Assembly: GCA_019057375.1 (NCBI GenBank)
Contig: DXJF01000111.1
Coordinates: 1 to 18,301, forward strand
From: Candidatus Heimdallarchaeota archaeon
GTDB lineage: Archaea > Asgardarchaeota > Heimdallarchaeia > Heimdallarchaeales > Heimdallarchaeaceae
DNA length: 18,301 bases
Direction: 5' to 3'
Both the position numbers and the translations under genes were made by a program. Numbering within the stretch: position 1 is the first letter of the stretch; each line of letters opens with the position of its first letter. Of this stretch, positions 1,605 to 2,423 are shown piece by piece. The notes under the pieces are model-generated. The model was given only the letters and a program-made list of their open reading frames with translations. It was not told where the DNA came from and did no database searches.

Positions 1605-2423
1605 TTATTTCTTTGTAGAAAGATATTTTTCCGCTATTTCATCGGTATTTATATCATATAATTTGCAATATCTTTCAGTTAATATGGGTTCATGATTGCC
1701 TTTCACAAGTGCTCCTTCGAAGTAAATCTTACCGAAGTATATAGGATTTATGAGAATTTTTTCAATCTCTTCGATGTTTAGTTTTGTGGCATCAGAAATC
1801 TCTTCTACGCTCCTATTTTGTTTGTAAAACCAAGATAACACAATTTTAACTTTCATTGCTTCATCTTCTTTGATAACTAGTTTGTCTTTCAGTAATTGAT
1901 ACCCAAATGGAATCAAATCACCATCAACATCTTTCAAAATAATCTGAATATTACCACCTGATTTCTTGATTTCTTCTGGAATCCCTTCTGGCACAGGTTC
2001 AGATTTATATTCTGGTTCAGAAACAATTTGCACTTCCTCAACTTCATCTTCATCTTCTTCGATAACATCTTCTACGACATCTTCAAGAACTTCTTCTTCA
2101 ACTTCTTCATCCATTTCTTCAAGAATTTCTTCAACTACATCCTCAACAGCTTCTTCGATAACTTCTTCGACTGCTTCTTCCTCGATCTCTTCTATTTCTT
2201 CTTCGTCTTCTGCAACTTCTTTAAGTTTCTCTACAAGCTCATCTATTTCTTCCTCAGGTTGTTCTCCGAGTTCTTCTTCTACTTCATCAATAAGCTCTTC
2301 CTTGACCTCTTCACTGAATTCTTCTACTTCCTCCTCAAGCTCTTCTTCAAGCTCTTCTTTTACTTCTTCACTAATCTCTTCTTCAGTTTCTTCAAGTATC
2401 TCTTCCTTAAATTCTTCTTCCAA
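1605..2423 (-). CDS. Glu-rich acidic N-terminal region fused to a large-serine-recombinase-type DNA-binding (Recombinase, PF07508-like) domain; no catalytic domain
   Basis: The C-terminal third reads PFGYQLLKDKLVIKEDEAMKVKIV...SVEEIS...IEKILINPIYFGKI...GNHEPIL, the PYGY/EA..V/IL.NP.Y.G/G.HEPI pattern of LSR recombinase domains. The TTG start at 2423 lies 8 nt after AAGGAG; the track's GTG 2432 overlaps that RBS. Confidence 0.78.
   Translation of the reverse strand: MEEEFKEEILEETEEEISEEVKEELEEELEEEVEEFSEEVKEELIDEVEEELGEQPEEEIDELVEKLKEVAEDEEEIEEIEEEAVEEVIEEAVEDVVEEILEEMDEEVEEEVLEDVVEDVIEEDEDEVEEVQIVSEPEYKSEPVPEGIPEEIKKSGGNIQIILKDVDGDLIPFGYQLLKDKLVIKEDEAMKVKIVLSWFYKQNRSVEEISDATKLNIEEIEKILINPIYFGKIYFEGALVKGNHEPILTERYCKLYDINTDEIAEKYLSTKK

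What the first reader, a model, noticed from the sequence alone, without database searches (positions are those of the whole stretch)
1605..2423. Catalytically dead serine-recombinase DNA-binding domain with a ~135-residue polyacidic tail, beside the repeat array
Seen: the N-terminal half is dominated by Glu, and the C-terminus carries the LSR recombinase-domain pattern with a shortened HTH (SVEEISDATKLNIEEIEKIL). There is no resolvase catalytic domain and no zinc-ribbon/coiled-coil. The gene starts about 90 bp from R1. Established: LSR recombinase domains bind the inner part of 40-50 bp att sites, and long acidic tracts can act as DNA mimics or chaperones of basic proteins. Inference: a domesticated recombinase acting as att-site binder, directionality factor or repressor for the array, or as a chromatin/histone-chaperone-like protein. 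The repeat core has pseudo-symmetry GTT-n3-TGCC-n10-GGCA-n4-AAC. Proximity could be coincidental.
Basis: partly seen in the sequence, partly recalled or inferred. Interest (0 to 1): 0.7.

Follow-up and report, generated by a model that had tools for sequence, protein, structure and literature searches.

The report
Acidic-tailed dead recombinase domain protein
This gene, found in one genus of Heimdall (Asgard) archaea, encodes the DNA-binding "recombinase domain" of a serine integrase with no catalytic part, fused to a roughly 130-residue glutamate-rich tail. It is conserved and clearly in use, but I found no sign that it services the neighbouring repeats, and its function is unknown.

Summary
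Window 1605-2423 (-) is a real 272-aa gene. Residues 1-130 are a polyacidic tract: the first 135 residues are 50% Glu and 57% acidic. Residues 159-272 have the recombinase-domain (RD) fold of large serine recombinases. The model has pLDDT 83.8, and its top Foldseek hits are all LSR recombinase domains (4KIS, E 4e-6). There is no resolvase catalytic domain, zinc ribbon or coiled coil.

The family occurs only in one Heimdallarchaeal genus (19 of 24 genomes), almost always as a single copy, and is under purifying selection (dN/dS 0.09-0.39).

The proposed link to the repeats is not supported:
- The repeats are partial copies of one end of a conserved, unclassified structured RNA gene (3849-4147). 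That gene is an insertion hot spot, as two earlier reports of this scan also found.
- In four genomes the RNA gene abuts hyp105, and in three of these the protein is found at another locus.
- The RNA gene exists in sister genera that lack the protein.
- The putative recognition helix carries conserved Glu where relatives have Lys or Arg.

My best reading, at low-to-moderate confidence, is an exapted, non-catalytic RD used as a docking module for a polyanionic tail that acts as a nucleic-acid competitor or chaperone of basic proteins. It is a new variant of a known kind, of moderate interest.

The parts
1605..2423 (-). Coding sequence of the acidic-tail recombinase-domain protein (272 aa from TTG 2423; an alternative GTG at 2432 gives 275 aa; stop codon at 1605-1607)
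   Evidence: ORF. Orthologues start M-EEEF. GGAG at 2432-2435 lies 8 nt before the TTG. Intact frames of 256-333 aa in most genus genomes with a match.
2034..2423 (-). Polyacidic N-terminal tract, residues 1-130 (about 50% Glu, aliphatic residues every 4th position, conserved N-terminal EEF motif). Its length varies among orthologues.
   Evidence: Composition and periodicity. 12-nt periodic DNA repeats. In-frame length variation and the invariant EEF in the alignment. Predicted helical, but at low confidence.
1950..2033 (-). Pro/Glu-rich linker, residues 131-158, with conserved Pro residues and a K-x-G-G motif before the folded domain
   Evidence: Invariant P146, P152, K157, G159 and G160 (275-aa numbering). 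Disordered in the AF2 model.
1608..1949 (-). Recombinase-domain (PF07508-type) fold, residues 159-272: beta-hairpin (PFGY), helix, short HTH, beta-hairpin (NPIYFGK...HEPI) and two C-terminal helices
   Evidence: Translation. Matches to the A118 RD. AF2 pLDDT 83.8. Foldseek hits. 60 of 63 homologues carry PF07508. dN/dS 0.09-0.39.
1752..1811 (-). Short helix-turn-helix of the RD (SVEEISDATKLNIEEIEKIL). The second helix aligns with the LSR recognition helix alphaH and carries conserved Glu/Asp.
   Evidence: Translation. Alignment to A118 over the region holding Tyr207/Asn208, with the residue roles from PMC3783163. Comparison across 49 RDs.
1555..1580 (-). Terminator-like hairpin followed by a T-run, 25 nt after the stop codon
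   Evidence: consensus scan only.
2492..2577 (+). R1: the most decayed partial copy of one end of the neighbouring RNA gene, 69-106 bp upstream of the start. This is context, not shown to be part of the gene's function.
   Evidence: 43.6 bits, against 64 bits for R2 and R3.
3849..4147 (.). Conserved, unclassified structured RNA gene whose end is the source of the repeats (R3 is its own end). It is an insertion hot spot. This is context only, and the strand was not settled here.
   Evidence: No Rfam family matched. The SRP and RNase P RNAs are elsewhere in the genome.

Best explanation
The gene encodes an exapted, non-catalytic derivative of the serine-recombinase DNA-binding module. A recombinase-domain (RD) fold is kept under purifying selection. 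It is joined by a Pro-rich linker to an N-terminal polyglutamate-rich tract that is probably helical or disordered, grows and shrinks in frame, and gives the protein a net charge of about -77.

Shown: the protein cannot recombine DNA, because it has no catalytic Ser domain, no zinc ribbon and no coiled coil.

Inferred:
- The RD no longer works as a classical att-site reader, because its recognition helix and overall surface have lost the basic residues of its relatives.
- The RD instead serves as a docking module, for a protein partner or at best weak DNA contact. It positions a long polyanion that competes with nucleic acid for basic surfaces.
- This is the logic of the Bacillus RNA-polymerase delta subunit (HTH-fold domain plus acidic tail), the HMGB1 tail, ANP32-type chaperones and phage DNA mimics.

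Its place beside the repeats is historical. It sits at the far edge of a gene-swapping hot spot built on the end of a neighbouring RNA gene. It probably arrived there as cargo or as a relic of an inserted element. It does not need that neighbourhood.
For: - RD fold and homology.
- No catalytic or zinc domain.
- No stand-alone resolvase domain in the genome. All four PF00239 hits lie in 252-262-aa frames; for three of them the same frame also holds an RD.
- Real, selected gene: strong family matches in 19 of 24 genus genomes, with intact 256-333-aa frames where the contig holds the whole gene; dN/dS 0.09-0.39; in-frame length variation of the tail.
- Charge: tail 57% acidic, protein net charge -77. 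The RD has a net charge of -1 to -7 (pI 4.8-5.9), against +3 to +18 in the other RDs compared and +6 to +7 in the short, tail-less paralogues.
- Recognition helix pattern x-I-E/D-x-I-E-K/E-I-L, where relatives have K/R-K/R. It aligns with the A118 segment that holds the base-contacting Tyr207/Asn208 (PMC3783163).
- The nearest relatives outside the family are themselves catalytic-domain-less proteins with HTH_23, one or two matched RD stretches and a winged HTH, so RD-only proteins are an established architecture.
- Independence from the repeats: in four genomes the RNA gene abuts hyp105, and in three of these the protein lies on another contig next to beta-helix genes. The RNA gene is present in genera without the protein. 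G025 has the protein with no extra repeat.
Against: - There is no direct evidence for any partner or for nucleic-acid mimicry. The mechanism rests on composition and analogy recalled from the literature.
- This organism's proteome is moderately acidic, and its own active-looking serine recombinases have RDs of net charge only 0 to +3. Charge alone does not exclude DNA binding.
- LSR RDs bind DNA largely through the backbone and minor-groove linkers, so an acidic alphaH is not proof of loss.
- The gene always lies at, or travels with, material from an insertion hot spot. That hot spot is used only in the genus that has the protein. This is one phylogenetic event, but it is compatible with a recombination-related role.
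- The full-length model is poor (pLDDT 41).
Confidence: 0.4

Rival explanations
1. One reading: the RD binds the repeat or RNA-gene end as an att-like site. The protein acts in trans as a specificity, directionality, insulating or repressing factor for cassette insertion and excision at the hot spot. Catalysis would come from one of the genome's ~250-aa serine recombinases.
For: - It lies at the distal edge of the repeat-bounded island in at least 9 genomes, often with a decayed repeat 70-240 bp upstream of its start.
- Extra repeat copies and cargo between the RNA gene and Elp3 are seen only in the genus that has the protein.
- The islands carry no integrase.
- The genome encodes four short serine recombinases elsewhere.
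Against: - The invariant repeat core is explained by pairing in the RNA's terminal helix.
- The recognition helix is acidic and the RD is not basic.
- In three genomes the protein lies on a different contig from the RNA gene and is still conserved.
- G025, G015 and G017 have the protein with no extra full repeat.
- Its closest relatives are not the genome's own recombinases (best E 1.7e-4) but catalytic-less proteins of other archaea.
- The taxonomic correlation is a single event.
Confidence: 0.12
2. It is an ordinary sequence-specific DNA-binding regulator or architectural protein acting at unknown sites. The RD still binds DNA, and the acidic tail autoinhibits or tunes binding, as in HMGB1 or UBF.
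For: - The RD fold with an HTH core is intact and conserved.
- The nearest relatives are multi-HTH proteins that look like DNA binders.
- The short paralogues keep a basic RD (pI 9.2-9.5).
Against: - The RD of the tailed form has net charge -1 to -7, and Lys is replaced by conserved Glu in alphaH.
- An autoinhibitory tail needs a basic domain to fold back on.
- No candidate operator was found, and there is no conserved divergent partner gene.
Confidence: 0.25
3. It is a protein partner of the neighbouring structured RNA (an RNP component), using the RD fold to bind RNA.
For: In one set of genomes of the genus the gene lies within 0.2-18 kb of the RNA gene. In G025 the two are about 180 bp apart.
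Against: - The RNA is present in three sister genera, and next to hyp105 in four genomes of this genus, without the protein beside it.
- A net charge of -77 is unfavourable for RNA binding.
- RDs are not known RNA binders (my own knowledge).
Confidence: 0.05
4. It is a functionless remnant of a degraded integrase gene, with runaway low-complexity expansion.
For: The tail is built of 12-nt repeats that expand and contract. The gene sits at an insertion hot spot.
Against: Frames of 256-333 aa without stops in the genus genomes where the contig holds the whole gene. dN/dS 0.09-0.39 over the RD, at dS up to about 2. All tail indels are in frame, and the N-terminal EEF motif is conserved.
Confidence: 0.05

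Closest known systems
Recombinase domain (RD) of large serine recombinases, e.g. Listeria phage A118/LI integrase (PDB 4KIS, 6DNW), SPbeta, Bxb1, PhiC31
   Same: The same mixed alpha/beta fold with an HTH core and the hallmark motifs P-x-GY, E-E-A...V, NP-x-Y-x-G and HEP-I. Profile E 7e-6; Foldseek E 4e-6, TMq 0.60, 25% identity.
   Different: No catalytic domain, no alphaE helix, no zinc ribbon or coiled coil. The HTH is about 5 residues shorter. The helix equivalent to alphaH (Tyr207/Asn208 in A118) is Glu-rich. The domain is not basic. It is chromosomal and genus-specific, not part of a phage.
Catalytic-domain-less 'recombinase family proteins' of archaea (HTH_23, one or two RD stretches, winged HTH; 356-574 aa; e.g. 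P0016-P0019, and P0021 = HML02477.1 of Bathyarchaeia)
   Same: These are the nearest relatives outside the family (E 1e-16 to 1e-9). They have the same short-HTH RD subtype and also lack PF00239.
   Different: They carry extra HTH and winged-helix domains and basic RDs (pI 9.2-10.4), so they look like DNA binders. None has a polyacidic tract. None is characterised, as far as I could find.
Short tail-less paralogues in the same genus (148-176 aa; NCBI names one 'recombinase family protein', MCG3215765.1)
   Same: 41-51% identical RD, and the same N-terminal helix motif as some tailed orthologues. Two of them pass Pfam's PF07508 cut-off.
   Different: No long acidic tract. The RD is basic (pI 9.2-9.5) and Lys is retained in alphaH.
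The genome's own ~250-aa serine recombinases (resolvase domain plus RD, no zinc ribbon; contigs C16, C118, C127, and C56, whose C-terminal part I did not inspect)
   Same: The RD shares the short HTH.
   Different: They have the catalytic domain with the Ser motif. They are only 27-30% identical to this protein (E 1.7e-4 to 1e-2). Their alphaH carries Arg, Ser, Thr and Lys.
Bacillus subtilis RNA polymerase delta subunit (RpoE), HMGB1, ANP32 and nucleoplasmin-type acidic tails, and the phage DNA mimics Ocr and ArdA (functional analogies from my own knowledge, not tested)
   Same: A small folded docking domain (of HTH type in delta) joined to a long polyanionic tract that competes with nucleic acid or shields basic proteins.
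   Different: No sequence or fold relationship was detected. The tail here is N-terminal and much longer, and no partner is known.

Membership tests
Large serine recombinase / serine integrase | N-terminal resolvase-type catalytic domain (PF00239) with the nucleophilic Ser | tested here: not met
   No PF00239 hit even at E 10. Residues 1-130 are a polyacidic tract.
Large serine recombinase / serine integrase | Recombinase domain (PF07508) following helix alphaE | tested here: met
   The fold and profile matches are clear. 60 of 63 homologues carry PF07508, and 14 of 22 family members hit it at E <= 0.01. This member alone scores 13.2 bits, below the 21.1 cut-off. There is no alphaE.
Large serine recombinase / serine integrase | Zinc-ribbon domain with embedded coiled coil (PF13408) | tested here: not met
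   No hit. The protein ends about 25 residues after the HEPI motif, and there is no Cys cluster.
Large serine recombinase / serine integrase | Site-specific recombination between att sites | not testable with these tools
   This needs an assay. Without a catalytic domain it is not expected.
Split serine recombinase (RD subunit plus a separate catalytic subunit) | A stand-alone resolvase catalytic domain gene in the genome or nearby | tested here: not met
   All four PF00239 hits in the genome lie in 252-262-aa frames; three were checked and also hold their own RD. None is in this window. The genome is 89% complete.
Catalytic-less PF07508 'recombinase family' proteins | RD present, PF00239 absent | tested here: met
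   This is the grouping I file it under. It is a database category, not a characterised family.
Catalytic-less PF07508 'recombinase family' proteins | Accessory HTH_23 and winged-helix domains, and often more than one matched RD stretch (as in the nearest relatives) | tested here: not met
   A single RD, with no other Pfam domain. The N-terminus is polyacidic instead.
Recombination directionality factor of serine integrases | Binds the integrase coiled-coil or zinc domain and switches att-site preference. It is normally encoded on the same mobile element as the integrase. | tested here: inconclusive
   There is no integrase in this window's ORFs or in the island ORFs checked in three other genomes. 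RDFs share no common sequence (my own knowledge), so homology cannot decide. Binding was not testable.
att-site or operator-binding protein for the repeats | A conserved symmetric binding site, and co-occurrence of protein and site | tested here: not met
   The symmetry is present only in R2 and R3. GGCA is conserved in 1 of 16 species. The protein lies on another contig from the RNA gene in three genomes, and the site occurs without the protein in sister genera.
Known anti-phage defence or DNA-mimic families | A match to a PADLOC, Pfam or NCBIfam model of such proteins | tested here: not met
   No PADLOC hit. The only Pfam and NCBIfam hits to the tail are low-complexity noise.

The most novel reading that the evidence does not exclude
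The protein is the non-catalytic DNA- or partner-targeting subunit of an integrase-less cassette-capture system. It marks or insulates the end of the structured RNA gene. Serine recombinases encoded elsewhere would then insert or excise single-gene cassettes there. This would be a split, trans-acting serine-recombinase system in the archaeal lineage closest to eukaryotes.
Probability: 0.08. Interest if true: 0.8.

Novelty: new variant of a known kind. Interest (0 to 1): 0.45.

Why it matters
Recombinase domains are known almost only as the att-reading part of phage and transposon integrases. This family shows one kept for its own sake, without any catalytic part, and fused to one of the longest polyglutamate tracts I have seen in a prokaryotic protein. 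It is fixed in one genus of Heimdallarchaeia.

It adds to evidence that archaea hold a sizeable, uncharacterised class of catalytic-less RD proteins: 46 of the 63 remote homologues lack the resolvase domain. If the tail works as a nucleic-acid competitor or as a chaperone of basic proteins, it would be a prokaryotic counterpart of eukaryotic acidic-tail chromatin and nucleolar factors, in a lineage of interest for eukaryogenesis.

If instead the protein acts on the adjacent hot spot, it would explain how integrase-less cassettes are captured. Neither role is shown. The practical value now is a correct annotation and a clear set of binding experiments.

Tried and rejected
I took genomic context from the genome search and the fetch from genomes instead.
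- Folding the full-length protein from the 11-sequence alignment gave an unusable model (pLDDT 41). Only the domain model was used.
- Rfam gave nothing for the window, even at E 10. ARAGORN found no tRNA here or at the alternative loci of the gene.
- The SRP and RNase P RNAs are elsewhere, so the neighbouring RNA is neither.
- 'Aloposons' of Heimdallarchaeum (PMC8813620) are unrelated: they have giant genes and tRNA targets.
- A PF07508 literature search listed nothing on catalytic-less RD proteins among the 15 titles shown.
- An integron-like reading was rejected. The GTT...AAC order is the reverse of attC (my own knowledge of attC sites). There is no integrase in the islands. The repeats are copies of an RNA-gene end.
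- A sensitive nhmmer search found no repeat remnant beyond the gene, between it and hyp105 or Elp3. I could not show that the gene lies inside a repeat-bounded cassette.
- The conserved adjacency to a 2-oxoacid-dehydrogenase-like acyltransferase (G000, G010, G030, and a paralogue pair in G009) was noted but not pursued.
- PADLOC gave no hits. The protein-atlas search only echoed 'recombinase domain' at lead level.

Full report
**The gene**

The minus strand holds an intact ORF at 1605-2432. GGAG lies 8 nt upstream of it (2432-2435), and all orthologues begin M-EEEF. A terminator-like hairpin with a T-run follows the stop. The S-rich and F-rich ORFs on the plus strand are mirror images of the low-complexity tract.

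**The tail**

- The first 135 residues are 50% Glu, 57% acidic and 4% basic. Aliphatic residues recur every fourth position, and 71 consecutive residues have no Lys or Arg.
- The DNA is built of 12-nt periodic repeats.
- Among orthologues the tract varies widely in length, always in frame. A short N-terminal EEF motif and a Pro-rich linker are conserved.
- The whole protein has a net charge of -77.
- The structure prediction for this part is helical but unreliable (pLDDT 41).

**The C-terminal domain**

- Pfam gives only a sub-threshold PF07508 hit (13.2 bits against a cut-off of 21.1).
- phmmer finds the A118/LI integrase RD in the PDB at E 1e-3. The family profile finds it at E 7e-6.
- NCBIfam finds CcrA residues 153-221, and PHROGs finds serine integrases (E 8.5e-6).
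- An exhaustive search of 1.8 billion representatives found 65 proteins. Of 63 scanned, 60 carry PF07508, only 17 carry a resolvase domain and 10 a zinc ribbon.
- With a 49-sequence alignment, AlphaFold2 gives a confident domain model (pLDDT 83.8, core above 90). Its top 14 Foldseek hits are all LSR recombinase domains: 4KIS at E 4e-6 and TMq 0.60, then SPbeta, Bxb1 and PhiC31.

This is an RD with no catalytic domain and no zinc ribbon or coiled coil.

**Distribution and selection**

- A profile of the family gives strong hits (E <= 1e-48) in 19 of 24 genomes of one genus. NCBI names one member 'Candidatus Heimdallarchaeota archaeon'.
- There are no such hits in the other four genera of the family. 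The next hits (E >= 1e-8) lie in 243-285-aa frames, the size of this genome's short serine recombinases.
- At least one absence within the genus is a contig break: G019 ends just where the gene should be.
- The RD evolves at dN/dS 0.09-0.39, with dS up to about 2. The gene is in use and is not a decaying relic.
- Two genomes of the genus (G009, G018) also carry a short paralogue of 148-176 aa, without the long tail and with a basic RD. Two of these pass Pfam's PF07508 cut-off, and NCBI calls one a 'recombinase family protein'.
- The nearest relatives outside the genus are 356-574-aa proteins with HTH_23, one or two matched RD stretches and a winged HTH, and no catalytic domain. One is from Bathyarchaeia.
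- The genome's own ~250-aa serine recombinases are more distant (E 1.7e-4 or worse).
- The genome has no stand-alone catalytic domain.

**Does the RD still read DNA?**

In the A118 complex the RD contacts bases through helix alphaH (Tyr207, Asn208) and the minor groove through flanking linkers (PMC3783163). The segment aligned to alphaH here reads x-I-E/D-x-I-E-K/E-I-L in nearly all tailed orthologues. Relatives with the same short HTH have Lys or Arg at those exposed positions, and the short paralogues keep Lys.

| Recombinase domains compared | Net charge | pI |
|---|---|---|
| Tailed family (this protein and orthologues) | -1 to -7 | 4.8-5.9 |
| RDs of other proteins compared | +3 to +18 | 9.2-10.4 |
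| Short tail-less paralogues | +6 to +7 | 9.2-9.5 |
| This genome's own serine recombinases | 0 to +3 | 6.6-9.1 |

The proteome of this organism is moderately acidic, and its own recombinases' RDs are only weakly basic. The charge argument is therefore suggestive, not decisive.

**The repeats**

- The 20-nt core (TTTCTGCCTGAACAGGAAGG) occurs three times in this genome, all in the window.
- In 17 of 24 other genomes of the genus it occurs 1-7 times per genome, on one strand and one contig in every case.
- R3 is simply the end of a ~300-nt, GC-rich, strongly folding element at 3849-4147 (z -4.4). R1 and R2 are partial copies of that end plus about 35 nt of flank.
- The element is conserved in 16 genomes. 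It has invariant blocks, variable inserted hairpins and a few compensatory changes. The repeat core forms one strand of its invariant terminal helix.
- It matches no Rfam family and is neither the SRP nor the RNase P RNA.
- Two earlier reports of this scan reached the same reading: e1-5718605 (a probably circular RNA gene) and e1-5718604 (a cassette hot spot resembling tRNA/tmRNA islands). I did not test the strand or circularity.
Its GGCA half is found in 1 of 16 species. It is not a conserved protein-binding palindrome.

**Locus history**

| Group | Gene order |
|---|---|
| Sister genera (G002-G005) | Cu-type ATPase, SBP5, (PAC2), RNA gene, then directly Elp3, F3, F4, F5. No tailed protein and no cargo. 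|
| Ten genomes of this genus, including this one | PAC2, RNA gene, variable island of 0-18 kb, tailed RD gene, hyp105, Elp3... |
| G013, G021, G022, G028 | The RNA gene abuts hyp105. In G013, G021 and G028 the tailed RD gene is on another contig beside beta-helix genes, at least 70 kb away in G013, and still conserved. G022 gave no family match. |

F4 and F5 look like fibrillarin and Nop5, which I recognised by eye only.

- The island carries secreted beta-helix/NosD-like proteins, small secreted proteins, a SecY paralogue, winged-HTH and zinc-ribbon proteins, and no integrase. It is punctuated by 0-7 extra repeats.
- In the ten genomes with the island arrangement, a decayed repeat often lies 70-240 bp upstream of the tailed RD gene.
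- G025 has no island: the RNA gene and the RD gene are about 180 bp apart.

The gene therefore sits at the far edge of the hot spot, or travels with its typical cargo, and entered this position within the genus. No repeat remnant was found distal to it. I cannot say whether it is an old cassette.

**Reading**

What is shown:
- a non-catalytic, selected, genus-specific RD protein with a huge polyanionic tail;
- repeats explained by the RNA gene;
- no obligatory linkage between the protein and the repeats.

What is inferred:
- The RD now serves as a docking module.
- The tail acts as a nucleic-acid competitor or a shield for basic proteins, by analogy with RNA-polymerase delta, HMGB1, ANP32 and the phage DNA mimics. 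These analogies come from my own knowledge.

I give this reading about 0.4. The one observation that keeps the last alive is that hot-spot usage and the protein share the same taxonomic range. That is a single evolutionary event.

**Novelty**

The acidic-tailed members carry only 'hypothetical protein' names where a source names them. Catalytic-less RD proteins are common in sequence databases, but I found no study of them. I rate this a new variant of a known kind, of moderate interest.

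Noticed in passing
window 3849-4147 (strand not settled): A conserved ~300-nt structured RNA candidate with an invariant ~17-bp terminal helix, two T-loop-like GGGGTTCAA motifs, variable inserted hairpins and compensatory changes. It matches no Rfam family. It is present in 22 of 24 genomes of the genus and in three sister genera. Earlier reports e1-5718605 and e1-5718606 of this scan already cover it.
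   Followed up: partly
window 2492-4147; L074 (G023:C1:617000-636999); L076 (G009): A gene-swapping hot spot between the RNA gene and the tailed RD gene. It spans 0-18 kb and has 0-7 extra partial copies of the RNA-gene end. The cargo is mostly secreted beta-helix/NosD-like and small secreted proteins, with no integrase. Sister genera have the RNA gene directly next to Elp3. Earlier report e1-5718604 covers it.
   Followed up: partly
G000 contigs C16, C118, C127, C56 (loci L002-L004, L084-L087): Four ~250-262-aa serine recombinases. Three were inspected and consist of a resolvase domain plus a short-HTH recombinase domain, with no zinc ribbon or coiled coil. This is an unusually small 'LSR-like' architecture that may mark mobile elements of this genus.
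   Followed up: partly
window 685-1497 (+); L039, L041, L043: A stand-alone 270-aa 2-oxoacid-dehydrogenase/CAT-like acyltransferase lies next to the tailed RD gene in G000, G010 and G030. A 44%-identical paralogue lies next to the short RD paralogue in G009. The pairing recurs in different orientations and is unexplained.
   Followed up: no
window 322-639 (+): hyp105 is a 105-aa acidic protein with no Pfam family. It is the convergent neighbour of the RD gene in most genomes and the direct neighbour of the RNA gene in G013, G021, G022 and G028. It is multi-copy (up to 6 matches) in sister genus g2, which suggests a small mobile or expanding family.
   Followed up: partly
window 3-137 (-): The N-terminal part of ribosomal protein S30e (PF04758, E 5e-11) runs off the contig start. 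In this genome the region beyond hyp105 therefore differs from the Elp3-fibrillarin-Nop5 block seen in relatives, or the contig breaks there.
   Followed up: no
L036:7328-7419 and 8104-8195 (G013): A 92-nt direct repeat (86% identical) lies just downstream of the relocated RD gene. One copy overlaps the 3' end of a 121-aa gene (F17). It may be a duplication scar at the alternative locus.
   Followed up: no
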